This document shows positions 10,503-62,084 of a stretch of 64,000 nucleotides of DNA, piece after piece. Positions within the stretch are counted from its first letter, which is position 1. Each line of letters opens with the position of its first letter. A program made the translations under genes and the position numbers. The notes under the pieces are model-generated. The model did not search any database. It was not told the DNA's origin and saw nothing but the letters and a program-made list of their open reading frames with translations. The stretch spans positions 63,391 to 127,390 of the forward strand of contig JACOXI010000005.1 of NCBI GenBank assembly GCA_016176335.1, written 5' to 3'. This stretch comes from Candidatus Daviesbacteria bacterium. Lineage in GTDB: Bacteria > Patescibacteriota > Microgenomatia > Daviesbacterales > UBA10151.

Positions 10503-11598
10503 TCTCTTGGGCCAGCAAAGGCTCCCACATAGCACCTGTGGCGCTCATTACACAATCTGCCCCAGCATCCTTATATTCAAAATAATCTTCTGCTTTGGTA
10601 ACTCCTCCCACACCAATTACGTTTATCGTAAATCGTAAATCGTTTATCGTTTTTCGCAGTCTCTTCACCATATCCAAGCCTGCCCATTTTATTGATGCTC
10701 CGCAAACCCCAGAGCGGGCTCTGTTTTTGCCGAGCAGCGCCTGATTTCCATCTTTATCAACAATCTCCGCTTGAATGGTATTGATGGAAGCAATAGCCTG
10801 GGCATATTGTTCACCAATTTCCACTAACTTCTTCAGATCTTCATCGCTTTGGTAATACCCCACTTTCAAAATTAAAGGAGTGACCCCAATTTCTTCTCTT
10901 ATAGCCTGACAAACCCTCTCTGTCGTCTCCAGGTTGTAACAAACCAACCCTTCATTTCCGATATTAGGACAGGACAAATTCACTTCCAAGATTTTTGCGT
11001 TTGTTTGCATCGATTGTTTTGCGGCTAAAGCATAATCCCTAACAAACTCATCCGTTGTTTGATTCTCCCTGACAGTTCCCATAAAACTTAAAACCAGAAC
11101 TTGTCCTCTTCCCGCATAAGAAATTGCCTTCTTAACATCCTCCTGCCAAACTGCCGGTTCCTTGGAAGGCACTCCAAAAGAATTAGTTATGGAAATCGGC
11201 TGCGAGTAATTATTGTCTGCCAAAAGAGGATTTTGGGCCTTCTCCAAAGTCAAATCTCCCTCAACTTTTACAGCTAAAACATTGGGGAAAGGATGGCAGG
11301 GAAAAACATCTGACCTGACTGTTTTATAGACACAAATATCAAAGCCTTTTTCAAAAGCAGCTTTACAGAATTTAGAATTGATTAAAGGCCCAGCTGGAAT
11401 ACCAAATGGCAGATGCACTTTTTGTCCTAAGAAATTGAACCTTGGTTCACCCTGAGCGAAGTCGAAGGGCTTCCCATTTGCAAATGCCCCAAACGGCCCC
11501 TGATCATAATTATCTTCATAGGATTTATTTGGATCGTAGAAAGGATCTTTAAGCATTAGGGGTATTTTAACACAAAAGTTAGACTTTCTTCTTTGCAT
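10483..11598 (-). CDS. pyrD: dihydroorotate dehydrogenase
   Basis: 371 aa. Motifs GIPAGP, LSCPN, IGVGGV. Convergent with pyrC and overlaps it by 20 nt. Carries an in-frame heptamer-repeat insert (KTINDLRFTINV). Confidence 0.75.
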   Translation of the reverse strand: MQRRKSNFCVKIPLMLKDPFYDPNKSYEDNYDQGPFGAFANGKPFDFAQGEPRFNFLGQKVHLPFGIPAGPLINSKFCKAAFEKGFDICVYKTVRSDVFPCHPFPNVLAVKVEGDLTLEKAQNPLLADNNYSQPISITNSFGVPSKEPAVWQEDVKKAISYAGRGQVLVLSFMGTVRENQTTDEFVRDYALAAKQSMQTNAKILEVNLSCPNIGNEGLVCYNLETTERVCQAIREEIGVTPLILKVGYYQSDEDLKKLVEIGEQYAQAIASINTIQAEIVDKDGNQALLGKNRARSGVCGASIKWAGLDMVKRLRKTINDLRFTINVIGVGGVTKAEDYFEYKDAGADCVMSATGAMWEPLLAQEIRKMGK

Positions 11599-11998
11599 GC
11601 TCTTTCAACCACTTGGCAATTTTTTCAACAGATAATTTTTCATTTTCGAGCTTGTGAGAAAATAGTCCACGTCTATTTTCTACTTTTAAAGCAAACTTGA
11701 CTACTTCTTTTTGCCTTGCATTGAAGAGATATCCATTTAATTCTAAAAATGTCATGGCCGAAAACATCGAGGTACGTTTATTCCCATCCACAAATGGATG
11801 ATTCCTCAATAGTACATGGATTAAAGCTCCTGTTTTTAAAAAAATATCAGGATATAAATCTTCTCCTCCAAATGAAGCTTGAGGCCTGGCCACAGCTGAT
11901 TCTAGAAGACCCAAATCACGGAGTCCGTGAGAGCCACCACTCTCATCAACTGCCATATTATGCAAAAGTAATACATCTTTGACAGATAAGTACTTCAT
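11579..11998 (-). CDS. doc: Doc (Fic-family) toxin
   Basis: 139 aa with the Fic/Doc motif HPFVDGNKRT. Confidence 0.8.
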   Translation of the reverse strand: MKYLSVKDVLLLHNMAVDESGGSHGLRDLGLLESAVARPQASFGGEDLYPDIFLKTGALIHVLLRNHPFVDGNKRTSMFSAMTFLELNGYLFNARQKEVVKFALKVENRRGLFSHKLENEKLSVEKIAKWLKEHAKKKV

Positions 11999-12310: not shown

Positions 12311-13375
12311 CTAACGGAGTCCCCCGGTTACCCTGACCTTGGAAAGCAAATCTAAATTTTCCAGCACTTCACCGCAGCCCCTGACAACTGAAGTTAGGGG
12401 ATCATCCGCAATATAAACCGGCAATTTTGTTTCCTCCGCAATTTTTTTATCCAATCCACGAATGAGCGCTCCTCCCCCTGCCAAGTAGACTCCGCGTTCC
12501 ACAATATCAGTGAGCAGCTCCGGAGGAGTTTCTTCTAAAACTTCTTGGATGGCGGAAACTATTTGAGAAATTGTCGGAGTTAAGGCTTCTCTTATTTCTG
12601 AAGCTGTAATCTTTAAAGATTTAGGCAGACCTGATGCTAAATCCCGGCCGCGGACAACAGTTGCCAAATCATCTTTACCCAAAGGGTATGCTGAACCAAT
12701 CTCAATCTTGGCCTCCTCTGCACTCTTCTCACCAATCAGCATGCCATATCTTATCCTCATGTAATTTACAATTGCCTCATCCAACTCATCTCCTGCCACC
12801 CGCAAAGATTTATTTATCACCATCCCTCCAAGTGAGATTACAGCGATCTCTGCAGTGCCCCCCCCAATATCCACCATCATCACTCCTTCCGGTTCTTCAA
12901 CCGGCAGTTTTGCTCCAATTGCTGCTGCCATAGGCTCTTCTATCAAATATGCTTCTCTTGCTCCGGCCGAAAGACATGCATCTTGTACTGCCCTTCTTTC
13001 CACTTCTGTCACGCCTGAAGGAATTCCTACAACAATTCTTGGTTTGGGAATTTTAGGCAAAGAAAAAAAGCCGCCTTTTCCAGGGGTTTGGTGAACCTTA
13101 TGGATAAAATAACGGAGCATTGCCTCGGTGGTATCAAAGTCAGAGATTACTCCATCCCGTAACGGGCGTACTGTCTCAATAGCCGCAGGAGTTCTCCCCA
13201 GCATTCTTTTAGCCTCCACCCCAATTGCCAAAACCTGCCTGGTCTTTTTGTGCAGCGCCACCACAGTGGGCTCGCGGATTAAAATCCCTTTGCCTTTAAC
13301 TAAAACTAAAGTATTAACTGTGCCTAAATCAATGCCGATATCATGGGAAAAAAATTGCCAAAACTTATCTAACAT
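12311..13375 (-). CDS. mreB: rod shape-determining protein MreB
   Basis: 354 aa. Actin-fold motifs (IGIDLGT, DIGGGTAEIAV). Confidence 0.9.
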   Translation of the reverse strand: MLDKFWQFFSHDIGIDLGTVNTLVLVKGKGILIREPTVVALHKKTRQVLAIGVEAKRMLGRTPAAIETVRPLRDGVISDFDTTEAMLRYFIHKVHQTPGKGGFFSLPKIPKPRIVVGIPSGVTEVERRAVQDACLSAGAREAYLIEEPMAAAIGAKLPVEEPEGVMMVDIGGGTAEIAVISLGGMVINKSLRVAGDELDEAIVNYMRIRYGMLIGEKSAEEAKIEIGSAYPLGKDDLATVVRGRDLASGLPKSLKITASEIREALTPTISQIVSAIQEVLEETPPELLTDIVERGVYLAGGGALIRGLDKKIAEETKLPVYIADDPLTSVVRGCGEVLENLDLLSKVRVTGGLR

Positions 13376-17064: not shown

Positions 17065-17790
17065 ATGTCAAAAGTCAAAATTATTTTTTTAGGAACTCCG
17101 CTTTTTGTTAAACTTATTAAAGATACACTGGCTAAGCATTTTACATTGGTAAAGTCACTAAAGGAGGCTGATTTAGCAGTGGTGGCGGCTTATGGCAGGA
17201 TTTTAACAAAAGATGAACTGGATATCCCTCAATATGGTTTTTTAAACATCCACCCCTCCCTTTTACCAAAATACCGGGGGCCGTCCCCAATTCAACAAGC
17301 CATCTTAAATGGAGACAAAGTATCCGGCATCACCATCATTAAAATGGATGAAGATGTGGACCATGGACCGATAATTTATCAAGAAAAATTAGAGCTTTCC
17401 GATAATGATAACTTTGATACTTTGAGTAAAAAGATGTTTCAGCTTGCAGCTCAAGTTTCACCCAAAATTATTGAAGATTTTGTATCCGGAAGAATACAAC
17501 CTACTCCACAAAATCATGATCAGGCCACCTACTGTGTTCGTCTCACCAGAGAAAGTGGGTATTTTCCTATTGATAATCCCCTCTCTGCTGAAAAATTGGA
17601 CAGGATGATTCGCGCCTATCATCCTTGGCCAGGGGTGTGGACTGTATGGGAAATCAAAAATCAAAAATCAAAAATCAAAAAGATTGTAAAGTTTCTCCCT
17701 GATGGAAGGATCCAAATGGAAGGGAAAAAAGCTATGCCGATGCGGGATTTTCTAAACGGCTACCCAGATTTTCCTTTAAAGGAACTTTAA
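17065..17790 (+). CDS. fmt: methionyl-tRNA formyltransferase (short form)
   Basis: Motifs HPSLLPKYRGPSPIQ and formyltransferase core. ATG at 17065 gives MSKVKIIFLGTP. Contains an in-frame (aatcaaa)4 tract. Confidence 0.8.
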   Translation: MSKVKIIFLGTPLFVKLIKDTLAKHFTLVKSLKEADLAVVAAYGRILTKDELDIPQYGFLNIHPSLLPKYRGPSPIQQAILNGDKVSGITIIKMDEDVDHGPIIYQEKLELSDNDNFDTLSKKMFQLAAQVSPKIIEDFVSGRIQPTPQNHDQATYCVRLTRESGYFPIDNPLSAEKLDRMIRAYHPWPGVWTVWEIKNQKSKIKKIVKFLPDGRIQMEGKKAMPMRDFLNGYPDFPLKEL

Positions 17791-22651: not shown

Positions 22652-22984
22652 TTATTTATTTAAACTATTAAAACGCTGCTCTGCTGTTTTTATTTCTTTA
22701 GAAGGTGTTTTCTCAGTTTTCTTCAAAAATACATGCAATAAATATATATTTTTCTTCACGAATCCATAAATTATCCGTACTTCTTGCCTACCTCTAATTC
22801 TCAATTCATAAAAATCCTGAGTTATCTTCTTACTGTGAGGCATGCCCAAAAATGGACCATGTGTTTCTAATAGATCAATTTCATTAGAAATTTTGGAAAC
22901 TGTTGAGTCATCAAGAGTTTTAATAAATTCTTTAACAACTTTCTCACCTCTGGCTGTTTCAAAGAAAAGTATTTCCCAATTCAT
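22652..22984 (-). CDS. higB: RelE/HigB-family (Gp49-like) toxin
   Basis: 110 aa. Conserved ELRIRGRQEVRIIY and LLHVFLKKTEKTP segments. Toxin gene precedes the antitoxin gene, as in higBA. Confidence 0.65.
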   Translation of the reverse strand: MNWEILFFETARGEKVVKEFIKTLDDSTVSKISNEIDLLETHGPFLGMPHSKKITQDFYELRIRGRQEVRIIYGFVKKNIYLLHVFLKKTEKTPSKEIKTAEQRFNSLNK

Positions 22985-23487: not shown

Positions 23488-23763
23488 ATGGAATATATTA
23501 CAACAACCCATTTAAGGACGAGATCTTCTCAACTTGTTGCTACCCTTCAAAAAGGTGGTTCGGTTTCGCTCATTCACCGATCAAAAGTGATTGGAAAAAT
23601 TGAGCCAGCTCAAAAAAGCCCTATTACAATAACCGATATTAAGGCGTTTGAAAAAGCTCTTGCAGGAATAAAACCAAAAAAGCTTATTCCCAGAAAAGAC
23701 AGGGACAAGGTGTATAGGCAACGCCTTATGGAAAAATATGGCAAAAATATTTCTAGACACTAA
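23488..23763 (+). CDS. Phd/YefM-like antitoxin
   Basis: 91 aa. N-terminus ITTTHLRTRSSQLVATLQKGGSVSLIHRSKVIGKIEP fits the Phd/YefM pattern. Overlaps the downstream PIN gene. Confidence 0.5.
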   Translation: MEYITTTHLRTRSSQLVATLQKGGSVSLIHRSKVIGKIEPAQKSPITITDIKAFEKALAGIKPKKLIPRKDRDKVYRQRLMEKYGKNISRH

Positions 23764-24106
23764 TGTCTTTGTTGATCTGGCAGAAAAAAGAAAACAAATA
23801 ACTCTAGCTGATTTTCTGGAACATGAGTTATATATTTCTCCTCTATCAATTCATATTCTAATCTATTTATATAAATATCAGATTCCTAGTAAGAAATTGA
23901 CTAATTTATTAAAAAAATTCATCAACCTTGTTCCTTTTGATAAAGGAATTACAGAATCTTCTTCTCAAGGCCCTACGGAAGACTTTGAGGATAATGTACA
24001 ACTGCATAGTGCTGCAGAAGCAGAATGTGATCTTTTCTTAACCAGTGATACAAAGTTATTAAGTTTGAAATTTTTTGGCAAGGCCCGGCTTGTCTCTACC
24101 CTATAA
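23738..24106 (+). CDS. vapC: PIN-domain toxin (VapC-like)
   Basis: 122 aa. N-terminal IFLDTNVF acidic motif and C-terminal LTSD. Confidence 0.7.
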   Translation: MAKIFLDTNVFVDLAEKRKQITLADFLEHELYISPLSIHILIYLYKYQIPSKKLTNLLKKFINLVPFDKGITESSSQGPTEDFEDNVQLHSAAEAECDLFLTSDTKLLSLKFFGKARLVSTL

Positions 24107-26064: not shown

Positions 26065-27375
26065 ATGCACAAAACTCATCTTAAGGAAAAGCATGACCAC
26101 CAAACTTTAAAATTTCCACAAGGTTTCTTATGGGGTGCTGCAACGAGTGCCCACCAGGTTGAGGGCGGAAATATTTACAATGACTGGTGGAAGTGGGAAC
26201 AGGATAGGCCCCCCCATCTTCGTTCAGGAGCAGCCTGTGATCAATATAACCGCTACAGGGAAGATTTTGAGATGGCCAAGGATCTAAACCACAACGCCCA
26301 CAGGCTGTCAATTGAATGGTCCAGAATTGAGCCTCGCGAGGGTGAATTTAACCTTGCCGAGATTGAGCATTATGTTAAGTTACTTAAGCACCTTAAGTCA
26401 CTTAATATGACAGTCATGTTAACCCTATGGCACTTTACACTGCCTGGCTGGTTAGCGGACTGCGGCGGGTGGGAGAACTTTAAAGCCCCTTTTTACTTTG
26501 AGCGTTTTGTTAAAAAAATTGCGCCTGAACTGGGAGAATACGTAGATTTCTGGGTGACCATCAACGAGCCGGGAGTTTATATTTACGAAACTTACATTGA
26601 AAGGGTTTGGCCGCATTCCAAAAAAAGCCTGATTGGCCAGATTAAAACTTATTTAAACCTTGCCTCCGCTCATAGAAAGACTTACAGATTTCTACATTCC
26701 AAAAATGCTTTGGGCAAACCAGTCGGCATGGCCCAAAACATCATGTCATTTGAACCTTACCACAAACATTCAATCATGGAGCAGCTGGCTGTTGTTGTAA
26801 ACGATATATTCACCAATCATCTTTTTTATTTTTTAACCCGAGGCACGCACGATTTCCTGGGAATAAATTACTATTTTCATGCCCGTTTAAAACACCAAGG
26901 TTTAATACCCCAAAAGGTAGACTTTTCTCCTCCAACGCACGAGGTGTCCGATTTAGGCTGGGAAATATACCCCGAGGGTCTTTTTGATGTTTTGAGTGAC
27001 CTTTCCGATGATGTGCCTATTTATATCACCGAGTGCGGCATTGCCTCAACCAACGACGATCGGAGAAACCGCTTTCTTGTAGCCTACTTACAAGAGGTTG
27101 TGAGGGCCATAAAATCAGGTGTAAATGTCAGAGGATTTTTCTATTGGTCTTTAATTGATAATTTTGAGTGGCATTTGGGATTTACACCTAGATTTGGTCT
27201 TATTGAAGTAGATTATGAAACCCAAAAAAGGCACATTCGGCCATCCGCATTAACCTTTGCGGAAATTATTGCTGCAAACGGCATTCCTCACACTTTGATG
27301 AGGTTTTTGGGACACACAGTCACATCAGAAGAGGTTTTAAAAAGATTTCAGAAAATGGAACCACAGCATAAATAA
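26065..27375 (+). CDS. glycoside hydrolase family 1 (beta-glucosidase-like)
   Basis: 436 aa. Acid/base TINEP and nucleophile ITECGIA (ITENG-type) motifs. N-terminal FLWGAATSAHQVEG. Confidence 0.8.
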   Translation: MHKTHLKEKHDHQTLKFPQGFLWGAATSAHQVEGGNIYNDWWKWEQDRPPHLRSGAACDQYNRYREDFEMAKDLNHNAHRLSIEWSRIEPREGEFNLAEIEHYVKLLKHLKSLNMTVMLTLWHFTLPGWLADCGGWENFKAPFYFERFVKKIAPELGEYVDFWVTINEPGVYIYETYIERVWPHSKKSLIGQIKTYLNLASAHRKTYRFLHSKNALGKPVGMAQNIMSFEPYHKHSIMEQLAVVVNDIFTNHLFYFLTRGTHDFLGINYYFHARLKHQGLIPQKVDFSPPTHEVSDLGWEIYPEGLFDVLSDLSDDVPIYITECGIASTNDDRRNRFLVAYLQEVVRAIKSGVNVRGFFYWSLIDNFEWHLGFTPRFGLIEVDYETQKRHIRPSALTFAEIIAANGIPHTLMRFLGHTVTSEEVLKRFQKMEPQHK

Positions 27376-27489
27376 TGCCAAAACTCAAATGTCAAAACTT
27401 AAAACTTAAAGATTTTAGCGCGTAGCGCGAACTTGTTCAGATTTGAGTTGTAGATTTGCGATTTGAGATCTAAGATTTAAGATAAACAA
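27376..27489. repeat. same heptamer-repeat palindromic element family, centre gcgcgtagcgcg
   Basis: aaactcaaatgtcaaaacttaaaacttaaag ... tagcgcgtagcgcga ... agatttgagttgtagatttgcgatttgagatctaagatttaagat. Confidence 0.75.
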
Positions 27490-31359: not shown

Positions 31360-31554
31360 ATGAAAAAAGGAGTTAGTTTTATTAAGGAAGTTTACGAAGA
31401 GTTAGTAAAAGTGGCCTGGCCCACCAGAGAACAAACTATCCGCTACACTGTTTTGGTAATCATTGTCACTTTGGTTGTGGGAGTTTTTTTGGGAGGATTT
31501 GATTATATTTTGACAGCAATAACAGCATTTATACTAGAACACTATGGACGATGA
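31360..31554 (+). CDS. secE: preprotein translocase subunit SecE
   Basis: 64 aa. VKVAWPTREQT motif followed by a single TM. Immediately upstream of nusG. Confidence 0.7.
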   Translation: MKKGVSFIKEVYEELVKVAWPTREQTIRYTVLVIIVTLVVGVFLGGFDYILTAITAFILEHYGR

Positions 31555-32308
31555 TTTAAAACTCAAAACTCAAATGTCAAATGTCAAAGCTGGAGAGGAT
31601 CAGACAGCAAAATCTGAACCAGTTAATGATATAAGCGAAGGGAGACTGCCTCCGAACGCAGCGAGCCCTAGAGTCGCCGAAGGCGACCGTACCCGAGGCG
31701 AAGCCGAAGGCGAGCCGCAGGGCGTAAGTACCGAAGGTACAGTTGGCGAGCAAGAGAGCGGGGCGGTCGACCGATCAGGCAATCCTAACGCCAAATGGTA
31801 TGTTGTTCATACTTATTCCGGTCATGAAAACAAAGTGGCGCACACTTTAAAGCAGCGGATTGAATCCGAACATTTGGAAGAGAAAATTTTAGATGTTTTG
31901 GTGCCTATGCAGGATAAAATTGAAATAAAAGGCGGCAAAAAAGTAAGCATTAAAGAAAAAATCTTCCCCGGCTATATTTTGGTAAAAATGGTTTTGGAAG
32001 ATAGTTCCTGGCTGGCTGTCAGAACAACTCAAGGTGTCACCTCCTTTGTGGGTATGGGTAATAAACCCACCCCGATCTCCGATGCGGAGGTGGCCACCAT
32101 AGTCAAATTTACCCAAGAGGAGGCTCCTGTTTATAAGCAGGTTTTCTCTGTTTCGGATACTATCAAAATTGTGGACGGGCCTTTTGCAGATTTTATTGGT
32201 AAAGTGGATAATGTGGATGAGGAAAAAGGCAAGGTTAAGGTTTTGGTATCAATATTCGGGCGTGAAACACCAGTGGAGTTGGATTTTCTGCAGGTGCAGA
32301 AGATATGA
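31544..32308 (+). CDS. nusG: transcription termination/antitermination factor NusG with ~75-aa repeat-derived N-terminal extension
   Basis: NGN start KWYVVHTYSGHENKV and KOW C-terminus. No in-frame start codon near the NGN domain, so the extension (heptamer tract plus GC-rich element) appears to be translated. Confidence 0.85.
   Translation: MDDDLKLKTQMSNVKAGEDQTAKSEPVNDISEGRLPPNAASPRVAEGDRTRGEAEGEPQGVSTEGTVGEQESGAVDRSGNPNAKWYVVHTYSGHENKVAHTLKQRIESEHLEEKILDVLVPMQDKIEIKGGKKVSIKEKIFPGYILVKMVLEDSSWLAVRTTQGVTSFVGMGNKPTPISDAEVATIVKFTQEEAPVYKQVFSVSDTIKIVDGPFADFIGKVDNVDEEKGKVKVLVSIFGRETPVELDFLQVQKI
31640..31775. repeat. GC-rich element copy inside the nusG N-terminal extension
   Basis: gggagactgcctccgaacgcagcgagccctagagtcgccgaaggcgac...gttggcgagcaagagagcggggcggtcgaccgatcagg. 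Palindrome gtcgccgaaggcgac. Read in a different frame than the PBP1A copy. Confidence 0.7.
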
Positions 32309-32805: not shown

Positions 32806-33723
32806 ATGGGCAAGACAAAAGTAGCCATCATTGATGATTCAGCGCAAGAAGAGAATAGAGAATCAAGAATAAAGAATAAAGCCTCTAAGAAAAGGGCTAA
32901 AGCGACCGAAGTGAAGTCTGATGCAGCTTCTCGACTGTTTGAGCCAGGCGAGGATGGCCAAAAGGCTCAAGCTTTGACGAGCGTGACGCCATCCGAGCCG
33001 ATTCCGCCAAAGGCGGAAGGCGAGTTGGAGAAGCAAATTCAGACGAACGAGAGAGTACAACCTAAAAAACCTCAAAAACCAGGCAAAGCTAAGCCCCGCT
33101 CCAAGAAATACCAAGAGGTCGTAAAAGATTTGGATAGAACTAAATCCTACCCTTTAGGTGAGGCTATAGAACTTAGTAAAAAACTGTCCTATTCTAAATT
33201 CACAGGTACACTTGAAGCACATATCAATACCACTCAAACAGGAATCCGTGGTTTAGCCTCCCTTCCCTATTCTTCAGGTAAAAAATTACGCATCCTGGTC
33301 TTTGGAAAAGGTGCCAAAGACGCAGGTGCAGATCTGGTGGGTGATGATTCCACCATTGAGGCTATCTCCCAGGGCAAAATTGATTTTGACCTTCTGATAA
33401 GCACTCCTGAATGGATGCCAAAGCTTGCCAAAGTGGCAAGGGTTTTGGGACCTAAGGGGCTCATGCCCAATCCCAAAAATGGCACCATCACAGACGACCT
33501 CAAAAAAGCAGTGGAAGGATTTCAAGCCGGAAAAACAGAATACAAAACAGAGGCCAAAGCAGCAGTAATCCACCTTGGGCTGGGAAAGTTGAATCAACCT
33601 ACCGAGGAGTTATCTGCCAATGTTCAAACTTTGCTTCAAACTTTAGGCAAAACCAGAGTTAAAAAAGTCACTCTTTCCCCCACCATGGGACCATCAGTTA
33701 AAGTTGATCTAGCTTCCATGTAA
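32806..33723 (+). CDS. rplA: 50S ribosomal protein L1 with ~90-aa N-terminal extension
   Basis: L1 core starts near KKYQEVVK...EAIELSKK. N-terminal Lys/Glu-rich extension carries a GC-rich stretch. Confidence 0.85.
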   Translation: MGKTKVAIIDDSAQEENRESRIKNKASKKRAKATEVKSDAASRLFEPGEDGQKAQALTSVTPSEPIPPKAEGELEKQIQTNERVQPKKPQKPGKAKPRSKKYQEVVKDLDRTKSYPLGEAIELSKKLSYSKFTGTLEAHINTTQTGIRGLASLPYSSGKKLRILVFGKGAKDAGADLVGDDSTIEAISQGKIDFDLLISTPEWMPKLAKVARVLGPKGLMPNPKNGTITDDLKKAVEGFQAGKTEYKTEAKAAVIHLGLGKLNQPTEELSANVQTLLQTLGKTRVKKVTLSPTMGPSVKVDLASM

Positions 33724-35362: not shown

Positions 35363-35436
35363 AGCTATCAGTCTTCAGCTATCAGCTTTCAGACTGAAAA
35401 ATTGTCTGACGACTGATGACTGACAGCTGACGACTA
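35363..35436. repeat. palindromic heptamer-repeat element of the ctgatag/gctatca family
   Basis: agctatcagtcttcagctatcagctttcagactgaaaaattgtctgacgactgatgactgacagctgacgac. Lies between the divergent starts of the membrane-protein and dockerin genes. Confidence 0.75.
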
Positions 35437-44454: not shown

Positions 44455-44650
44455 ATATCTCAAAACTCAAATCGCAAAACATCAATGCTGCCTTCGGCAG
44501 AACAAAAATACAATTCAAATCTAAAATCTTTTAACGGTTTTGAGATTTAGGATGTAGATTTGACCCATTCGGCTTCGTTCAGGGTCATCCTGAGCATTGT
44601 CGAAGGATGCCATTTGAGATCTAAGATTTGAGATTTAGCACTTAAGTACT
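44455..44650. repeat. heptamer-repeat arms flanking a conserved core (ggtcatcctgagcattgtcgaaggatgc)
   Basis: Arms tctcaaaactcaaatcgcaaaac ... gatttgagatctaagatttgagatttag. Core has hairpin catcc/ggatg. Related cores at 42667..42702 and 61174..61220. Confidence 0.75.
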
Positions 44651-45238: not shown

Positions 45239-46030
45239 TCAACCCTTCAGCTGAGCTCTCAAAAGCAAATACAGGTATTGTATTAAAGCCAGCTGCCTTT
45301 TGATCCTCCATGGTTGAAGACACAACCTGAACAACCACTCAAATCCTAAATGTTGTATCCAAATTGGAGCTCTGGGAACCTTGCCGCTTATTATATCAAA
45401 TGCTCCCCCCACCCCCATAGCCACTTTAACAGGAATTTTGGGCAAATTTTTAGCAATCCATTTTTCTTGTTTTGGAGGACCAAGCGCCACAAACAAAATA
45501 CCTGTTTGTGGCAGATTTAAGATATAAGATTTAGGATTTATGATTTTCTCTCTATTCTTAAATCTTAAATCATAAATCATATCTCCATCATCATTAAAAA
45601 TCCCAACTTCACTGGCAAACGAGACTTTAAGTTTTGGATATTTCCTCTTCAAGCACTCAGCCGTTTTTTCTGCTATCTTCCCTCTCCCTCCTAAAAAGCC
45701 TGTTGTAAAACCCTTTTCTTCGGCCATCTTTACCAACCCTTCCATTACATCTATACCAGGGGTAGTCATAACTATATCACCAGTAAGTTTCAACCCTACC
45801 CCATCAGGAACTGCTAAATCCGCGTTATTTAATATCCTTTTAAATACAAGGTCTTTTTGGGCCGCGACGATAAACTCCGGATTAGGAGTTACTATGTAAT
45901 GTTTACCGGGATTCCAAATCCAATGCTCTACTATCGTAAGCGCTTCATTAAGACTTACATCATCAATTTTGATTCCCAGAACATCTACTTTCATAAATTC
46001 TCCAATACCCCAAGTGTTTCTTTTGCGCAT
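45239..46030 (-). CDS. tagA: WecB/TagA/CpsF-family glycosyltransferase
   Basis: 263 aa. Family motifs (IVTPNPEFIV, DLAVPDGVG). Contains an in-frame heptamer-repeat insert (YDLRFKNREKIINPKSYILNL). Confidence 0.75.
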   Translation of the reverse strand: MRKRNTWGIGEFMKVDVLGIKIDDVSLNEALTIVEHWIWNPGKHYIVTPNPEFIVAAQKDLVFKRILNNADLAVPDGVGLKLTGDIVMTTPGIDVMEGLVKMAEEKGFTTGFLGGRGKIAEKTAECLKRKYPKLKVSFASEVGIFNDDGDMIYDLRFKNREKIINPKSYILNLPQTGILFVALGPPKQEKWIAKNLPKIPVKVAMGVGGAFDIISGKVPRAPIWIQHLGFEWLFRLCLQPWRIKRQLALIQYLYLLLRAQLKG

Positions 46031-47160
46031 TTCTCCCAGCTAAATCTTTCTATATTATCAAGTCCCGCCTTAATAAGCTTAATTCTTAATTCTTGATTCT
46101 TTATTCTTATCATTCCCTTTACTATATCATCTACACTATATGGATTAACATAAACTGCTCCTTTACCAGCCACCTCCGGCATGGATGAAAGATTAGAAGT
46201 GATCACCGGACAACCACAAGCCTGGGCCTCCAAGATTGGCAAACCAAAACCTTCAAAAAGCGAAGGAAAAAGTAATGCTATTGCTCCGAAGTACAGTGCA
46301 GATAAATCTTTATCAGGCACATACCCCAAAAATTTTACCCTGTCCTCTATCCCTAATTTCTTTGGCAACTGATAAATTTCATCAGACAGCCAGCCTTTAG
46401 AACCTGCTATAACTAATTTCAGTGATTTATGATTTATGATTAAAGATTTATGATTTTTTATTCGTAAATCAGTATTCTTAAATCGTAAATCTTGCTCATA
46501 AATTAATTTTTCTTCAGATATAAACTTACTGAATGCAATAATTAAACGCTCGAGATTTTTACGAGGCTGTACTGTCCCCACAAACAAAAAATAACTATGA
46601 TACTTTAAATTATATTTCTTAATACTTTGAGTGTCTTTGAACTTTTCTTTATCATATCCTTCATAACTCACGCTGATTTTATCCGGTTTAATTCCCACCC
46701 TTTTGATAAGATCATCCTTAGTGGCCCGGGACACAGCAATCAAGGCAGTTGCGCTTTTTAGCTGGGAGCGGGTCATGAAATTTAAATACAACCTTTGTTT
46801 TAGCTGGTGCATGGCCGGAAGATATTCTGATCCCAAATCATGAACAGTCACCAAAGTCTTAAGTCCTGGCTTTCTAATAACCGGCAAGGTATGGGCAGGT
46901 ACAAATAACACATCAATATTGTCTTTGAAGGTCTGCAAAGCCAACCCCCCTTGAGTCCATAAAAATTTAAAATTTAAAGTTGAAAATTGAAAATTGTCAG
47001 GGAAATCTTTTTTAACAAAATTAACACCTGGCCTTAAATAAACTTGGTAAGTATTTTTCCTATCAATCCTTGCCAAAGCCTTAAGCAGTTGATAAGAATA
47101 ATTCTCTGTACCTGTTTTCTCTTTAATAAAGGCCCTGGAAGCATCAAATCCAATAATCAT
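45991..47160 (-). CDS. GT4-family glycosyltransferase
   Basis: 389 aa. EGFGLPILEAQACGCPVITS motif. Contains an in-frame heptamer-repeat insert (DLRFKNTDLRIKNHKSLIINHKSL). Confidence 0.8.
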   Translation of the reverse strand: MIIGFDASRAFIKEKTGTENYSYQLLKALARIDRKNTYQVYLRPGVNFVKKDFPDNFQFSTLNFKFLWTQGGLALQTFKDNIDVLFVPAHTLPVIRKPGLKTLVTVHDLGSEYLPAMHQLKQRLYLNFMTRSQLKSATALIAVSRATKDDLIKRVGIKPDKISVSYEGYDKEKFKDTQSIKKYNLKYHSYFLFVGTVQPRKNLERLIIAFSKFISEEKLIYEQDLRFKNTDLRIKNHKSLIINHKSLKLVIAGSKGWLSDEIYQLPKKLGIEDRVKFLGYVPDKDLSALYFGAIALLFPSLFEGFGLPILEAQACGCPVITSNLSSMPEVAGKGAVYVNPYSVDDIVKGMIRIKNQELRIKLIKAGLDNIERFSWEKCAKETLGVLENL

Positions 47161-47525: not shown

Positions 47526-48542
47526 TTAGCGCTTAGAAACCGACCGCTTATATAAATCCAAATTTTCCAAAGCAATGCCTGTGCCTAAGGCCACACACAG
47601 CAGTGGGTTTTCTGCCAAAGCCGCAGGTACCCCCAAAGAATCTGTTAAATGTTTATCCAAATTCCTAAGCAGCGACGTCCCGCCGCTCATCACAATTCCT
47701 TTATCAATAATGTCTGATGCCAGCTCCGGTGGAACTTGCTCTAAAACCTCTTTAACTGCCCCGATTATTTTGTGTGTTATATCGGCAATTGCCTCCGTTA
47801 CCTCATCACTGTTTATTTCAACTGTCCGAGGCAATCCTGAAAAAGCATCTCTGCCTCTCACCTCTGCTTTTTCAACTTCGGCAGGTTTAAGTTTGACTGC
47901 AGAACCAATCTTTATTTTTACATCTTCCGCCATTCTTTCCCCAATTATCAAATTATGCTTTTTGCGAACATAAGTTTGGATAGCCTCATCAATTTTATTG
48001 CCGCCAACCCGAACAGACGAGTGAACTACCACTCCTCCCAAACAAATCACCGCGGCCTCTGTGGTCCCTCCGCCAATATCCACAATCATATTGCCGGAAG
48101 GATTGGCAATGGGGATCCTGGCTCCGATTGCGGCAGCTAGAGGCTCGTCAATCAAAAAAGCTGTTTTTGCCCCAGCTGAAAGTGTGGCATCCAAAATTGC
48201 TCTTTTTTCCACAGATGTCACTCCGGCCGGTGCACAAACCATCACCTCCGGTTTAAAAATCCTGCTTGGTCCGCACACCTTGTCCAAAAAATAGCGGATC
48301 ATGGCTTCGGTGATCACATAATCCGCAATAACCCCGTCTTTCATCGGACGGGAAGCAATAATATTTCCAGGAGTTCTTCCCAACATCTCTTTGGCCTCAT
48401 TACCAACAGCCAACACCCGAGCATCATCTGTGGTGATTGCCACCACTGTCGGCTCATTGAGAACTATTCCTGTTCCCGCCAAGTAAACTAAGGAGTTTGC
48501 AGTACCTAAATCAATACCAACTCTTTTGGATAAGCCAAACAT
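47526..48542 (-). CDS. MreB/Mbl-family actin-like protein (second paralog)
   Basis: 338 aa. Motifs GIDLGTANSLVY and DIGGGTTEAAVI. Confidence 0.85.
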   Translation of the reverse strand: MFGLSKRVGIDLGTANSLVYLAGTGIVLNEPTVVAITTDDARVLAVGNEAKEMLGRTPGNIIASRPMKDGVIADYVITEAMIRYFLDKVCGPSRIFKPEVMVCAPAGVTSVEKRAILDATLSAGAKTAFLIDEPLAAAIGARIPIANPSGNMIVDIGGGTTEAAVICLGGVVVHSSVRVGGNKIDEAIQTYVRKKHNLIIGERMAEDVKIKIGSAVKLKPAEVEKAEVRGRDAFSGLPRTVEINSDEVTEAIADITHKIIGAVKEVLEQVPPELASDIIDKGIVMSGGTSLLRNLDKHLTDSLGVPAALAENPLLCVALGTGIALENLDLYKRSVSKR

Positions 48543-48600: not shown

Positions 48601-48672
48601 AGCTATCAGTCGTCAGTCGTCAGACAGAAAATTGTATAAGTCTGATAGCTGAAAGCTGAAGTCTGATGACTA
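48601..48672. repeat. palindromic heptamer-repeat element of the ctgatag family
   Basis: agctatcagtcgtcagtcgtcagacagaaaattgtataagtctgatagctgaaagctgaagtctgatgac. A half copy lies at 16216..16250. Confidence 0.75.
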
Positions 48673-56201: not shown

Positions 56202-56340
56202 AAGTTAATAATAGCATATCTCAAATGTCAAAACTCAAATGTCAAATCTGAATCTTAAAACTTAAAACTAGACTAAAACAGTTTTGAGATTTAAGTTTTA
56301 GTTTTGAGTTTTGCGATTTGCGTTTTGAGTTAACATTAGC
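56202..56340. repeat. palindromic composite intergenic element built from degenerate heptamer repeats (tcaaatg arm / cattttga arm)
   Basis: Left arm tctcaaatgtcaaaactcaaatgtcaaatctgaatcttaaaacttaaaac, centre tagactaaaacag, right arm ttttgagatttaagttttagttttgagttttgcgatttgcgttttgag. The arms are reverse complements of each other. Confidence 0.8.
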
Positions 56341-57296
56341 AATACTCCACCCAATACCATATAATACCCCACCCAAACTACCCAAATTTGTTCCCCCACA
56401 TATTCCCAGGCAAAGGGCATGGAGGCAATGAATTGAACAATGTAAACAAAATAAGTTAATAAAATATTTAAGATCAGGGCCACAACTGTTCCTAAAATCT
56501 GCGAGATTGAACCTAAAATTAGCATAACTGCCCCCCCGATCATAATAAAAGGCACTGTCCAACCTACCAGTAAATTTGTTATAACCGCAACCAATGACAG
56601 CTGGTGAAAGTGTTGGATGATAATTGGCATAACCGCAATCTGTGCACCCATTGTAATTGCCAGATCCTGGCCGATCAGCGGCAAATATTTAAAATATTTA
56701 AGCAAGATCGGGGCTATTATAATAAGTCCCATGGTTGCCATAAATGAGAGTTGAAATGACAAATCAAAAAGCCATTGGGGATTTAGAAGCAACATAAAAG
56801 CTCCTGTTACAACCAAAGTCCAAAAACCACTGTTTTGTCTGCCAAAGATTTGAGCCAAAAAGGAAAGAGAAACCATAATAGTTGCACGGAGTACAGGCAC
56901 TTGGGCTCCGGTGAGTAGTGTATAAAAAATAATTGCCCCAAAAGCTAAAATAATGGCTGCTTTTCTTTTGATAAGGCCGGCAAGTGCCAGAAAAAACCCG
57001 GCCACCATGCTTAAATTTTGGCCGGACACAACAACAATATGTAATGTTGAGGTATCTCTTAAAGCAAGTTGGAATTTTGGCGGCAAACTCTTTTTCTCAC
57101 CTAAGACAATACCTGATAAAAGTTGAGCTTGGGGCGAGGGTAAAAATTTGGTTATAGTCTCATCTAGAGCTTGACGCTGATTTTGAAAGAGATCTGTCTT
57201 TATCTCCCAACCTCCCTGTAAAAATCTTAACCAAAATAGCAATAAATATAAAATAACAGATAAAATTAAAGGGAGATTTCTATTTAAAAAATACAT
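56298..57296 (-). CDS. comEC: ComEC/Rec2 competence-domain membrane protein (no beta-lactamase domain)
   Basis: 332 aa polytopic protein. Competence-domain core (LRDTSTLHIVVVSGQNLSMVAGFFLAL). Confidence 0.65.
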   Translation of the reverse strand: MYFLNRNLPLILSVILYLLLFWLRFLQGGWEIKTDLFQNQRQALDETITKFLPSPQAQLLSGIVLGEKKSLPPKFQLALRDTSTLHIVVVSGQNLSMVAGFFLALAGLIKRKAAIILAFGAIIFYTLLTGAQVPVLRATIMVSLSFLAQIFGRQNSGFWTLVVTGAFMLLLNPQWLFDLSFQLSFMATMGLIIIAPILLKYFKYLPLIGQDLAITMGAQIAVMPIIIQHFHQLSLVAVITNLLVGWTVPFIMIGGAVMLILGSISQILGTVVALILNILLTYFVYIVQFIASMPFAWEYVGEQIWVVWVGYYMVLGGVLLMLTQNANRKTQN

Positions 57297-57314
57297 TTGT
57301 TACACGATAAGTGG

Positions 57315-57899
57315 CTAGTAGATTGTTATAGAATCCTTAATTTGTTCAAATACAGACTTGCCGACTATTTTTTTATCTAGCAGGTCCTCTATTTTTTGAT
57401 ATGGCCTGTCCGAAATAATTTTTGATGCCCTACCAGAACCTATTCCCGAAAGAGATTCAAGTTCTGACTGGGAAGCAGTATTAATGTTTATTTTGGATTG
57501 AACTCCTGCTACTGCTTGGCTACTTTGAGACCCTGTTGTTTCCCCTTCAAATGGGACATAAACTTTACTTCCATCTGACAGTTTTTGTGCCATATTTAAA
57601 TACTTTGATATATATTCTCCGTTAGCTGTTTGGGCAAATCCTCCAGCTACTGCAATAGCCTCCTCTATTCTAGAACCTGTCATTAACTGGTACACGCCTG
57701 GTTTATTAACTGCCCCGGATACATCCACAGAAATCATTTTTTGGCTTTCTTCGACTAAACTTTCTTTTGGAAACTGGACCTGACGCGTCTGATTTAAACC
57801 GGAGGCAAATATTCCTCCCACAATCAACACCATACCTAAAATACTTAAGGCTATTGGCAGTTTGAATTTTTCAAGTTTTTCAAAAGAATTACCATCCAT
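57315..57899 (-). CDS. comEA: ComEA (SLBB plus tandem helix-hairpin-helix DNA-binding domain)
   Basis: 194 aa. N-terminal TM. C-terminal ININTASQSELESLSGIGSGRASKII. Confidence 0.75.
   Translation of the reverse strand: MDGNSFEKLEKFKLPIALSILGMVLIVGGIFASGLNQTRQVQFPKESLVEESQKMISVDVSGAVNKPGVYQLMTGSRIEEAIAVAGGFAQTANGEYISKYLNMAQKLSDGSKVYVPFEGETTGSQSSQAVAGVQSKININTASQSELESLSGIGSGRASKIISDRPYQKIEDLLDKKIVGKSVFEQIKDSITIY

Positions 57900-60791: not shown

Positions 60792-62084
<1,293 letters not shown>

What the first reader, a model, noticed from the sequence alone, without database searches (positions are those of the whole stretch)
45514..46495. Two adjacent wall-glycopolymer glycosyltransferases (TagA-like and GT4) each carry an in-frame gatttac/gatttaa heptamer-repeat insertion
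The TagA-like gene holds gatttaagatataagatttaggatttatgatt...cttaaatcttaaatcataaatcat at 45514..45580, encoding YDLRFKNREKIINPKSYILNL. The GT4 gene holds gtgatttatgatttatgattaaagatttatgat...cgtaaatcagtattcttaaatcgtaaatc at 46422..46495, encoding DLRFKNTDLRIKNHKSLIINHKSLKL. The peptide inserts have a 7-residue period (21 nt is three heptamers). They share the DLRF(K/T)N motif with the pyrD insert, which implies the same repeat family entered three unrelated enzymes.
Basis: seen in the sequence. Interest (0 to 1): 0.7.

Follow-up and report, generated by a model that had tools for sequence, protein, structure and literature searches.

The report
Hairpin heptamer repeats inside two glycosyltransferases
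Two neighbouring cell-envelope sugar-transferase genes of an uncultured Daviesbacteria (CPR) bacterium each carry, in frame, a roughly 65-75 base hairpin built from 7-base repeats; it belongs to a repeat population that pervades this lineage, sits in dispensable surface loops, and is kept at the DNA level better than the host genes, much like the "protein-coding palindromes" of Rickettsia.

Summary
The WecG/TagA-family gene (45239..46030, minus strand) and the GT4 gene (45991..47160, minus strand) each hold an in-frame array of GATTTAN heptamers, a short loop, and the inverted array. Each forms a hairpin.

Orthologs show that both are insertions at hypervariable sites. About half the orthologs have nothing there. 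Others carry the same family, other heptamer hairpins, or GC-rich palindromes. AlphaFold2 gives the segments low confidence between well-predicted core elements.

The inserts belong to a much larger phenomenon. Period-7 tandem arrays are the only enriched period in the window (39 runs against about 0.2 expected) and in most of 80 Microgenomates loci. The same element sits in frame in LeuRS and TrmD and in intergenic DNA of other metagenomes.

Synonymous codons inside the inserts are 76-96% conserved, against 39-54% in the host genes, so something preserves the DNA and not the peptide. Tract lengths are identical in three independent assemblies, which argues against phase variation.

The "pyrD insert" and two further GT4 arrays are not insertions. 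They overlie native helices at unchanged length.

Best reading: a dispersed, RPE-like DNA repeat tolerated in protein loops. How it spreads is unresolved.

The parts
45239..46030 (-). WecG/TagA/CpsF-family glycosyltransferase gene (263-aa ORF). The true start is probably M13 at 45994, which overlaps the GT4 stop as ATGA.
   Evidence: Pfam PF03808, E 7.5e-41. TagA of PDB 7mpk, E 7.9e-46. 100% identical to a protein named as Candidatus Daviesbacteria.
45515..45577 (-). In-frame insert in the TagA-like gene: 63 nt, residues 152-172, IYDLRFKNREKIINPKSYILN.
   Evidence: Absent from orthologs P0004, P0031 and P0072, and P0094/P0101 have only a short linker. The query has 14 extra residues against TiTagA at this point. 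AF2 pLDDT is 61-70 here and 91 or more just after it.
45513..45582 (.). Hairpin of the TagA insert: GATTTAN array 45513-45547, loop about 45548-45555, inverted array 45556-45582.
   Evidence: I6, I10, I11; z -3.4 and -4.1.
45991..47160 (-). GT4 (GT-B fold) glycosyltransferase gene, 389 aa.
   Evidence: Pfam PF00534, PF13692 and PF13439. Orthologs named as Daviesbacteria GT4.
46420..46491 (-). In-frame insert in the GT4 gene: 72 nt, residues 224-247, DLRFKNTDLRIKNHKSLIINHKSL.
   Evidence: Minimal orthologs have 4-8 residues at this site. AF2 pLDDT is 47-71.
46424..46491 (.). Hairpin of the GT4 insert: arm 46424-46453, loop 46454-46461, arm 46462-46491.
   Evidence: -15.7 kcal/mol, z -4.5 on the sense strand; -25.3, z -6.6 on the antisense strand. 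(I12, I13).
46074..46110 (-). Heptamer array (AAGAATN x ~4.6) encoding IRIKNQELRIKLIK in the C-terminal helix of GT4. It is not an indel.
   Evidence: Orthologs have the same length but other units (CAGCTGT, AGGGTAC, AGAGTCA, AGTTCAA, AGTGCAA, AGATTAC).
46958..47000 (-). Heptamer array (CAATTTT/AAATTTT) encoding NFQFSTLNFKFLW in the N-terminal domain of GT4. It is not an indel.
   Evidence: Orthologs read NFQFSILNFQFLW or NFQFKxIxWxRLW at the same length.
10619..10656 (-). Direct heptamer array (GATTTAC/GATAAAC) in the pyrD-like gene, encoding KRLRKTINDLRFTIN. It has no inverted arm and is not a clear insertion.
27374..27486 (.). Intergenic hairpin of TTTRNGW-type heptamer arrays between the GH1 gene and the next gene.
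   Evidence: (-22.0 kcal/mol).
44457..44640 (.). Intergenic complex just downstream of the GT4-TagA-GPI gene run: heptamer arrays, plus a GC-rich palindrome (44566-44613) nested inside a GATTTGA-type array.
   Evidence: Three public contigs end at 44580.
56218..56332 (.). Long intergenic heptamer-array hairpin between ArgRS and ComEC.
   Evidence: (-33.3 kcal/mol).
61097..61250 (.). Intergenic heptamer-array hairpin with a nested GC-rich palindrome (61170-61213).
35363..35435 (.). Intergenic hairpin of the AGCTNTC/CAGTCNT heptamer family. The same family occupies the GT4 central site in other genomes.
   Evidence: (-24.1 kcal/mol).
48601..48668 (.). Intergenic hairpin of the CAGTCGT/AGCTGAA family, downstream of mreB.
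   Evidence: -25.8 kcal/mol.

Best explanation
The two segments are copies of a dispersed, self-complementary DNA repeat. Each is an array of degenerate heptamers (GATTTAN, more generally TTTRNGW), an A-rich apex, and the inverted array.

Such heptamer arrays and array-hairpins populate Daviesbacteria and Microgenomates genomes. They are concentrated in intergenic DNA but also lie inside many genes.

These two copies landed, or grew, in the two structurally dispensable, hypervariable surface sites of the TagA-like and GT4 enzymes. They survive there for three reasons: their length is a multiple of three, their stop-creating units have mutated, and the encoded 21-24 residue peptide is an exposed excursion. 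The peptide is a by-product.

The element is kept as DNA. It stays far more similar between diverged lineages than the synonymous sites of its host genes. This points to continuing homogenisation among copies, or to selection on the nucleotide sequence itself.

Shown:
- the anatomy;
- insertion polarity;
- the loop location, by proxy;
- dispersal into unrelated genes and into intergenic DNA;
- nucleotide-level conservation;
- the absence of tract-length variation.

Inferred: that the copies spread and homogenise through hairpin or slipped-strand intermediates (fold-back copying, ectopic short-patch conversion, or an unidentified enzyme acting in trans), and that they have no enzyme-specific function.
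For: Insertion and hotspot:
- At the TagA site, the segment between LGG and GPPKQEKW ranges from 33 to 94 aa in 35 genomes.
- Short states fold weakly (0 to -10 kcal/mol); long ones fold at -13 to -52 kcal/mol.
- The GT4 central site ranges from 6 to 57 aa.

Surface location: low pLDDT between confident core elements. There is a 14-residue excess against solved TagA.

Family and dispersal:
- The window has 39 period-7 runs against about 0.2 in shuffles; other periods give 0-6.
- Most of the 80 loci from other genomes show the same.
- 30% of arrays lie in the 11% of the window that is non-coding (p 0.004).
- The apex-defined element GATTTAAGAAT-N(2-24)-AAAATCATAAATC was found on 35 metagenome contigs. 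It is in frame in LeuRS, in two different TrmD orthologs and in an unknown protein, and it also occurs in intergenic DNA.
- An intergenic copy (L117) differs by 2 nt over about 78 nt from the LeuRS copy.
- Near-identical peptide variants occur in TagA of one genome and GT4 of another.

DNA-level maintenance:
- Among codons with identical amino acids, the same codon is used in 14/17, 11/13, 13/17 and 25/26 cases inside the inserts. In the rest of the genes the figures are 54%, 39%, 53% and 51% (p 0.036, 0.0023, 0.077 and 1.9e-6).
- The LeuRS element is 78/79 nt identical where the flanks are 70% identical (p 1e-10).

Reading-frame filtering: in the NTAAATC arm an in-frame TAA falls due every third unit. 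Exactly those units are altered (gatAtaa in TagA, gattAAa in GT4). TGA is avoided as CGA or AGA.

Essential genes also carry arrays: ArgRS, Fmt, NusG, L1 and the pyrD-like gene.
Against: - No mobilising enzyme was found. None of the 60 window ORFs scanned against Pfam matches a transposase family. The window is only a fraction of the genome.
- No target-site duplication or empty-versus-filled allele pair was found.
- Some arrays clearly arise or turn over in place, not by insertion. The GT4 C-terminal and LeuRS C-terminal arrays keep a constant length but have different units. The GT4 central-site arrays start inside the conserved A-F-S codons, and the hairpin arm pairs with those native codons.
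- Strong nucleotide conservation could equally mean a function as RNA or DNA that I cannot see.
- Surface exposure rests on AF2 confidence, not on a solved structure.
Confidence: 0.6

Rival explanations
1. Purely local origin. The segments are ordinary heptanucleotide simple-sequence repeats. They grew in place by replication slippage from a native seed and became palindromic by fold-back (template-switch) copying. No movement between loci is involved, and the similarity between genes is convergence driven by a lineage-specific slippage bias for 7-nt, T-rich units.
For: - Arrays at orthologous positions keep a constant length but differ in unit. This holds for the GT4 C-terminal helix and the LeuRS C-terminus.
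- Minimal GT4 linkers are themselves 3-unit arrays that begin in the conserved A-F-S codons. The L008 and L040 hairpins pair their 3' arm with those native codons.
- Many different unit sequences exist.
- Over-representation of heptanucleotide repeats attributed to polymerase slippage is described in other bacteria (PMC4692102 and PMC4679880, citing Mrazek et al. 2007).
Against: - Near-identical composite elements, sharing an idiosyncratic apex and irregular units, sit at unrelated loci: LeuRS against an intergenic site (2 differences in about 78 nt), and TagA against GT4 in different genomes.
- Elements stay 84-99% identical while host synonymous sites are saturated. Independent local growth does not predict this.
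- The same gene can hold one family at two sites (P0151).
Confidence: 0.17
2. Cis-acting nucleic-acid element. The hairpins function in the mRNA or the DNA of the GT4-TagA-GPI operon, for example as RNase or stability determinants, translation pauses for co-translational folding or coupling, or protein-binding sites. They are conserved for that reason.
For: - Folding is significantly better than shuffles.
- Nucleotide-level conservation exceeds that of synonymous sites.
- The same families form hairpins between genes, where REP-like roles are plausible.
Against: - About half of the orthologs have no insert, and others have unrelated palindromes at the same site.
- The 5' arm has decayed in L044.
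- The sense-strand hairpin is the weaker one, because stop avoidance breaks pairs.
- Conservation is of sequence, not of pairing through compensatory change.
- Consensus terminator and promoter scans are at chance level.
Confidence: 0.1
3. Functional peptide module. The Lys/Arg/His-rich 21-24 residue loop helps these lipid-linked-substrate enzymes bind the membrane or a partner.
For: - Both enzymes act on undecaprenyl-linked substrates at the membrane (established knowledge of the TagA/WecG and GT4 families).
- The peptides are cationic.
- The TagA insert peptide is conserved in L004 and L044.
Against: - The same element is in cytosolic LeuRS and TrmD.
- Orthologs carry unrelated peptides or none.
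- Conservation extends to synonymous positions, which protein-level selection does not explain.
- AF2 gives the segments low confidence.
Confidence: 0.05
4. Phase-variable contingency locus. Gain or loss of one 7-nt unit shifts the frame and switches surface-glycan genes on and off.
For: - Glycosyltransferases are classic phase-variable genes.
- A 7-nt unit is not a multiple of 3.
- Perfect arrays exist elsewhere in the window, for example TACTACT x5 in a Wzy_C-like gene.
Against: - The tracts are imperfect, with at most 2 identical consecutive units.
- Three assemblies from three sequencing runs are identical over 3.4 kb.
- The TagA insert has kept its length and frame in a lineage only 66% identical in protein.
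- Arrays also sit in essential housekeeping genes.
Confidence: 0.03

Closest known systems
Rickettsia palindromic elements (RPEs; Ogata et al. 2000, 2002, as summarised in PMC10969869)
   Same: Palindromic repeats inserted in frame into many unrelated, often essential genes, adding a peptide at positions compatible with fold and function. Copies also occur in non-coding DNA. No transposase is known.
   Different: - RPEs are about 100-150 bp with family-specific sequences and are not built from tandem heptamers. The elements here are 63-80 nt arrays of a degenerate 7-mer with variable unit number.
- The host is a CPR bacterium, not Rickettsia.
- No sequence comparison with RPEs was run.
- These copies are conserved beyond the synonymous sites of their host genes.
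Heptanucleotide long simple-sequence repeats: cyanobacterial STRR, Xanthomonas GGGAATC, Beggiatoaceae TAACTGA (PMC4692102, PMC4679880)
   Same: Specific over-representation of 7-nt tandem units. The repeats are mostly intergenic, sometimes occur as inverted pairs able to form stem-loops, have unknown function, and are attributed to polymerase slippage.
   Different: - Those are described as essentially intergenic and as one or a few unit sequences per genome.
- Here many unit families coexist, 70% of the arrays in the window lie inside ORFs, and hairpin copies are translated within enzymes.
REP/REPIN elements mobilised by RAYT transposases (PMC3116915)
   Same: Short hairpin-forming dispersed repeats whose sequence is maintained across copies. 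A trans-acting enzyme that recognises the hairpin would explain the nucleotide-level conservation.
   Different: REPINs are extragenic and are tied to a RAYT gene. No RAYT or any transposase was seen in the window, and these elements are frequently intragenic.
Bacterial MITEs that make in-frame fusions (Correia, ERIC, BOX; PMC10969869)
   Same: Small inverted-repeat elements that occasionally lie in ORFs in frame.
   Different: MITEs have defined terminal inverted repeats, target-site duplications and a parent IS. None of these was found here.
[quoted passage not shown]
   Same: Coding DNA with dyad symmetry that yields periodic amphipathic peptides and is spread among genomes.
   Different: PARCELs are tandem 25-residue domains that make up whole accessory or surface proteins. 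They are not short single hairpins inserted in conserved enzymes.

Membership tests
Rickettsia palindromic elements (protein-coding palindromes) | Self-complementary (hairpin-forming) repeat | tested here: met
   both inserts fold with z -3.4 to -6.6; inverted-repeat pairs I6, I10-I13.
Rickettsia palindromic elements (protein-coding palindromes) | In-frame copies in several unrelated genes, plus non-coding copies | tested here: met
   TagA and GT4. LeuRS, TrmD and an unknown protein, plus intergenic copies.
Rickettsia palindromic elements (protein-coding palindromes) | Insertion at surface positions away from the catalytic core | tested here: inconclusive
   AF2 pLDDT is 47-71 in the inserts and 90 or more in neighbouring core elements. 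The sites are hypervariable in orthologs. There is no solved structure, and solvent exposure was not computed.
Rickettsia palindromic elements (protein-coding palindromes) | Sequence homology to an RPE family, about 100-150 bp, Rickettsia lineage | tested here: not met
   The elements are 63-80 nt, are built of heptamers, and lie in Candidatus Daviesbacteria. A direct alignment to RPE sequences was not run.
Heptanucleotide LSSR / STRR-type repeats | Tandem 7-nt units enriched over other periods | tested here: met
   39 runs for period 7, against 0-6 for periods 3-12 and about 0.2 in shuffles; the same in most related loci.
Heptanucleotide LSSR / STRR-type repeats | Predominantly intergenic location | tested here: inconclusive
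   Arrays are enriched 2.7-fold in non-coding DNA (p 0.004), but 21 of 30 lie in ORFs.
MITE | Target-site duplication and defined termini | tested here: not met
   No common flanking duplication among the TagA, GT4, LeuRS and TrmD copies. Arm unit number varies.
MITE / REPIN | A cognate transposase (IS parent or RAYT) in the genome | not testable with these tools
   None of the 60 ORFs of the 64-kb window scanned against Pfam matches a transposase family. The rest of the genome was not available.
Phase-variable simple-sequence contingency locus | Tract-length polymorphism between or within populations | tested here: not met
   Three assemblies from three runs are 100% identical. Length and frame are kept in L004. 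Read-level data were not examined.
Phase-variable simple-sequence contingency locus | Long perfect tract | tested here: not met
   At most two identical consecutive units in either insert.
WecG/TagA/CpsF glycosyltransferase (host gene 1) | Pfam PF03808 domain over the full length, and similarity to solved TagA | tested here: met
   140 bits, profile positions 1-167 of 168; 7mpk, E 7.9e-46.
GT4 / GT-B glycosyltransferase (host gene 2) | N-terminal Glyco_transf_4 domain plus C-terminal Glycos_transf_1 domain | tested here: met
   PF13439 over residues 17-172 and PF00534 over residues 227-366. The insert lies at the start of the C-terminal domain.

The most novel reading that the evidence does not exclude
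Microgenomates (CPR) genomes harbour an active, lineage-specific DNA process that writes and homogenises 7-nt tandem arrays and array-hairpins across both intergenic and coding DNA.

In this reading the process inserts hairpins at recurrent hotspots. It overwrites native coding sequence without changing its length. It keeps dispersed copies nearly identical while host genes diverge to saturation. The likely routes are hairpin or slipped-strand conversion, possibly fed by natural transformation, or an unrecognised hairpin-specific enzyme.

Because 3 x 7 nt = 7 codons = two helical turns, the process would systematically seed heptad-periodic helices and loops in the proteins of a whole phylum.
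Probability: 0.3. Interest if true: 0.8.

Novelty: new variant of a known kind. Interest (0 to 1): 0.6.

Why it matters
The papers consulted here treat protein-coding palindromes mainly as a Rickettsia feature, with occasional in-frame MITEs elsewhere (PMC10969869). They describe heptanucleotide repeat excess as an unexplained and mostly intergenic curiosity of a few phyla (PMC4692102, PMC4679880).

In this window the two phenomena coincide, in an ultrasmall CPR bacterium with a reduced genome. One would expect such a genome to purge 65-115 nt hairpins. Instead they sit in many intergenic spacers and in essential enzymes. They also evolve more slowly than the synonymous sites of the genes that host them.

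This gives a tractable system for two questions: how short repeats spread and stay homogeneous without a known transposase, and how nucleotide-level processes create protein sequence.

Practical consequences:
- These repeats break assemblies; three public contigs end inside one.
- They inflate apparent divergence between orthologs.
- They generate recurrent low-complexity peptides that can mislead homology searches in CPR genomes.

Tried and rejected
- **Assembly artefact:** rejected, because three independent assemblies are identical.
- **Phase variation:** rejected at the consensus level.
- **T-rich-arm-first versus A-rich-arm-first topology** as a discriminator between coding and intergenic hairpins: my composition-based classifier was not reliable for units such as GATTTAA, and the counts were mixed. 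Dropped.
- **The native 10-bp inverted repeat next to the TagA insert (45486-45512) as a general insertion target:** it is present only in the window and in L004. Dropped.
- **Mismatch-by-mismatch test of stop avoidance:** only one of the two possible repairs creates a stop, at 4 of 10 non-Watson-Crick positions. This is suggestive only. The unit-phase argument is stronger.
- **Peptide searches for a census of host proteins:** The exhaustive search with the 38-aa segment gave a single hit, the same unknown protein as L099.
- **Rfam:** only tRNAs at gathering threshold.
- **Consensus promoter and terminator scans:** at chance level.
- **Literature searches:** I found no description of heptamer hairpins or in-frame palindromes in CPR or Patescibacteria.
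- **Ogata et al. 2002 (PMC186582):** not held by the library.
Full report
**Observation**

The window (GC 40%) comes from a Candidatus Daviesbacteria (Microgenomates, CPR) genome. Both proteins are 100% identical to database entries with that name.

ORF 45239..46030 (minus strand) is a WecG/TagA/CpsF-family glycosyltransferase (Pfam PF03808, E 7.5e-41; TagA structure 7mpk, E 7.9e-46). ORF 45991..47160 (minus strand) is a two-domain GT4 enzyme. The GT4 stop and the probable TagA start (M13) overlap as ATGA. A cupin-type GPI-like gene follows.

Each segment is more than a heptamer tract. It is an array of GATTTAN units, a short A-rich apex, and the inverted array.
- TagA hairpin: 45513-45547 / 45556-45582.
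- GT4 hairpin: 46424-46453 / 46462-46491.

GATTTANGATTTA with at most 1 mismatch occurs 19 times, against 0.93 expected. Both segments fold far better than dinucleotide shuffles (z -3.4 to -6.6).

**Are they insertions?**

Thirty TagA orthologs align cleanly except between GGEVDxxGN and PxTDLLFVAFG.
- P0004, P0031 and P0072 have no heptamer or palindromic insert there, and P0094/P0101 keep only a short linker.
- P0003 has the same insert.
- P0005, P0053 and P0059 have other versions of the GATTTAN hairpin.
- P0008, P0014 and P0019 have a CTATACT-type hairpin (SIEYxVSSIEGKKQKK..HYTLYSI).
- P0025, P0028 and P0010 have GC-rich palindromes.

In 35 genomes the segment from LGG to GPPKQEKW ranges from 33 to 94 aa. 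Inserted DNA folds at about -13 to -52 kcal/mol, and short states fold weakly.

GT4 behaves the same way between RLIxAFS and LVIAGSKGW. The site is 4-8 aa in minimal orthologs (350-367 aa proteins) and up to 57 aa in others, with the same assortment of repeat families.

Solved TagA has a short helix at the site, and the query has 14 extra residues there. AlphaFold2 models (pLDDT 87 and 79 overall) give 61-70 (TagA residues about 152-172) and 47-71 (GT4 residues 224-247) between confidently predicted core elements.

**Context**

Period-7 tandem runs are the only enriched period in the window: 39 runs, against 0-6 for periods 3-12 and about 0.2 in shuffles. There are many unit families, including GATTTAN/TTTRNGW, GAGTTTT, CGATAAA, CTATACY, TACTACT, AGCTNTC and AATTTTN.

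With arrays merged under the strict threshold, 9 of 30 lie in the 11% of the window that is non-coding (p 0.004). The other 21 are inside ORFs. These ORFs include ArgRS, Fmt, NusG, ribosomal protein L1, a Wzy_C-like protein and the pyrD-like gene.

Intergenic copies form long hairpins: 27374-27486, 35363-35435, 48601-48668, 56218-56332 and 61097-61250.

In about 1.3 Mb from 80 other genomes fetched through TagA, most Daviesbacteria, Levybacteria and Microgenomates loci show 1-7 period-7 runs per 10 kb, against about 0-0.5 for periods 5, 6 and 8. Eighteen loci show none. The two inserts are local instances of a lineage-wide repeat population.

**Dispersal**

I scanned metagenome contigs for the apex-defined element GATTTAAGAAT-N(2-24)-AAAATCATAAATC. 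It returned 35 contigs. The element is in frame in:
- leucyl-tRNA synthetase (L092, L098, L116);
- two different TrmD orthologs (L095/L097 and L100/L104/L109/L112);
- an unknown 280-aa protein (L099).

It also lies in intergenic DNA. The intergenic copy in L117 sits between two pilin-like genes and differs from the LeuRS copy by 2 nt in about 78, including the apex and an irregular ATATTTC unit.

Variants recur across genes. L035 TagA (VINDERLKINEKNHQSLIVNHKSL) resembles L006 GT4 (VINDERLKIKDLKSLIINHKSI). P0053 TagA resembles the window's GT4 insert. One GT4 (P0151) holds one family at both of its variable sites.

No target-site duplication is evident. No transposase family was matched by any of the 60 window ORFs scanned.

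**Nucleotide-level maintenance**

The TagA insert is orthologous in L004 (66% protein identity) and L044. It has the same 3' junction and the same frame.

| Comparison | Nucleotide identity, insert | Nucleotide identity, rest of gene | Third codon positions, insert | Third codon positions, rest of gene |
|---|---|---|---|---|
| TagA, window vs L004 | 89% | 68% | 18/21 | 48% |
| TagA, window vs L044 | 75% | 58% | 17/21 | 36% |
| GT4, window vs L120 | 84% | 70% | 22/25 | 48% |

Restricting the comparison to codons with identical amino acids controls for codon bias. The same codon is then used in 14/17, 11/13, 13/17 and 25/26 cases inside the inserts (TagA window/L004, TagA window/L044, GT4 window/L120, LeuRS L092/L116). 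In the rest of the genes the figures are 54%, 39%, 53% and 51% (p 0.036, 0.0023, 0.077, 1.9e-6).

The LeuRS element is 78/79 nt identical between lineages whose flanks are 70% identical (p 1e-10).

A neutral passenger peptide would not behave this way. The DNA is either being homogenised among copies or selected as nucleotide sequence. One pair (GT4, window vs L006) shows no excess, and the 5' arm has decayed in L044, so maintenance is not universal.

**Reading-frame filtering**

In the NTAAATC arm an in-frame TAA would recur every third unit. Exactly those units are altered: gatAtaa in TagA, TAA to TAY shared with L004, and gattAAa in GT4. In the GATTTAN arm the TGA phase reads AGA or CGA.

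The CGA changes leave G.U pairs on the antisense strand. This explains why the antisense strand folds better.

**Arrays that are not insertions**

The pyrD-like array (10619-10656) overlies the helix before the IIGxGG strand. The protein is only 3-5 residues longer there than the solved enzymes.

In GT4, the array at 46958-47000 (NFQFSTLNFKFLW) and the array at 46074-46110 (IRIKNQELRIKLIK) align without indels. The C-terminal segment is 21 aa in 20 of 24 orthologs. In most of them it is a ~4-unit heptamer array, but with different units: CAGCTGT, AGGGTAC, AGAGTCA, AGTTCAA, AGTGCAA, AGATTAC and AAGAATN. Mean period-7 self-identity is 0.50, against 0.31 for period 6 and 0.33 for period 9.

A LeuRS C-terminal segment shows the same behaviour. 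AGTGCAA, AGTTGAA and AGTTCAA arrays replace IQKDIIDNKEVVEK at equal length.

At the GT4 central site the short arrays begin inside the conserved A-F-S codons (GCTTTCAG). The 3' arm of the L008 and L040 hairpins pairs with those native codons. This looks like local fold-back copying.

These arrays therefore also arise and turn over in place. Insertion of ready-made elements cannot be the whole story.

**Alternatives**

- Phase variation is unlikely. The tracts are imperfect. Three assemblies from three sequencing runs are identical. Length and frame are stable across deep divergence. Arrays occur in essential genes.
- A functional peptide is unlikely. Cytosolic LeuRS and TrmD carry the same element. 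Orthologs carry unrelated peptides or none. Conservation extends to synonymous sites.
- A cis-acting RNA or DNA role cannot be excluded, but it is not supported by ortholog variability or by the weaker sense-strand fold. Consensus terminator and promoter scans are at chance.

**Comparison with what is known**

The closest analogue in behaviour is the Rickettsia palindromic element: in-frame palindromes in unrelated genes, as reviewed in PMC10969869.

In composition the repeats resemble the heptanucleotide long simple-sequence repeats of cyanobacteria, Xanthomonas and Beggiatoaceae. There a 7-nt slippage bias has been proposed and inverted pairs have been noted (PMC4692102, PMC4679880). REPIN/RAYT systems (PMC3116915) would explain sequence maintenance, but no such gene was seen.

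My literature searches found no description of this in CPR or Patescibacteria.

I therefore class it as a new variant of a known kind: RPE-like protein-coding palindromes built from heptanucleotide arrays, lineage-wide in Microgenomates, and unusually well maintained. The mechanism of spread and homogenisation is the open and interesting part.

Noticed in passing
window 44566-44613 and 61170-61213: A GC-rich ~45-nt palindromic element (core TCATCCTGAG...TCGAAgGAT) is nested inside T-rich heptamer arrays at two intergenic sites. Three public contigs all end at 44580, inside the first copy, as expected for a multi-copy repeat that breaks assemblies. TagA and GT4 orthologs carry other GC-rich palindromes in frame (VIARSEATKQS..ARNDE; FCHSGAKRSEAIESRSY; ..LRFAQNDN; PELVEG..GLRMTG).
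   Followed up: partly
window 14753-14786 and 17651-17681: Two perfect heptamer tracts lie inside genes. TACTACT x5 sits in a Wzy_C/TPR O-antigen-ligase-like gene (peptide TTYYLLLTTYYL). AAATCAA x4.4 sits in methionyl-tRNA formyltransferase (EIKNQKSKIKK). The Wzy_C-like gene holds five separate arrays, one of them a hairpin at 15341-15408. Perfect tracts are the best candidates for length variation.
   Followed up: no
GT4 orthologs in L005-L084 (C-terminal helix); LeuRS in L092, L098, L116: Orthologous heptamer arrays keep position and length but differ in unit sequence between lineages. The same units (AGTTCAA/AGTGCAA, peptide VQSSKFKVQS) recur in GT4 and in LeuRS of different genomes. This implies homogenisation without length change.
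   Followed up: partly
window 45486-45512: A perfect 10-bp inverted repeat, GCCACAAACA/TGTTTGTGGC, lies directly next to the TagA insert and encodes the conserved LPQTGILFVA. It is present only in the window and in L004, the lineage that shares the insert.
   Followed up: yes
window 45991-45994: The GT4 stop codon and the likely TagA start codon overlap as ATGA, which suggests translational coupling. The annotated 263-aa TagA ORF probably starts 12 codons too early.
   Followed up: partly
window 31544-32308 and 32806-33723: NusG and ribosomal protein L1 have about 83-aa and about 125-aa low-complexity N-terminal extensions ahead of their Pfam domains. Both extensions begin with heptamer arrays.
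   Followed up: no
window 12311-13375 and 47526-48542; 3653-4735; 56298-57899: There are two full-length MreB paralogs, plus MreC and PBP2. A natural-competence set is also present (DprA, ComEC, ComEA). DNA uptake could feed recombination among repeats.
   Followed up: no
window 11579-11998, 22652-22984, 23738-24106: Toxin-like genes (Fic/DOC, Gp49/HigB-like, PIN) are scattered among the housekeeping genes.
   Followed up: no
L092 (LeuRS, metagenome contig Ga0213870_1001090): A single LeuRS gene carries several different repeat-derived segments: the GATTTAN hairpin, an AATTTTC array (IFNFQFSI), a GC-rich-palindrome-like peptide (DPSTGSGQGK) and an AGTGCAA array. One essential enzyme can therefore accumulate many such segments.
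   Followed up: no
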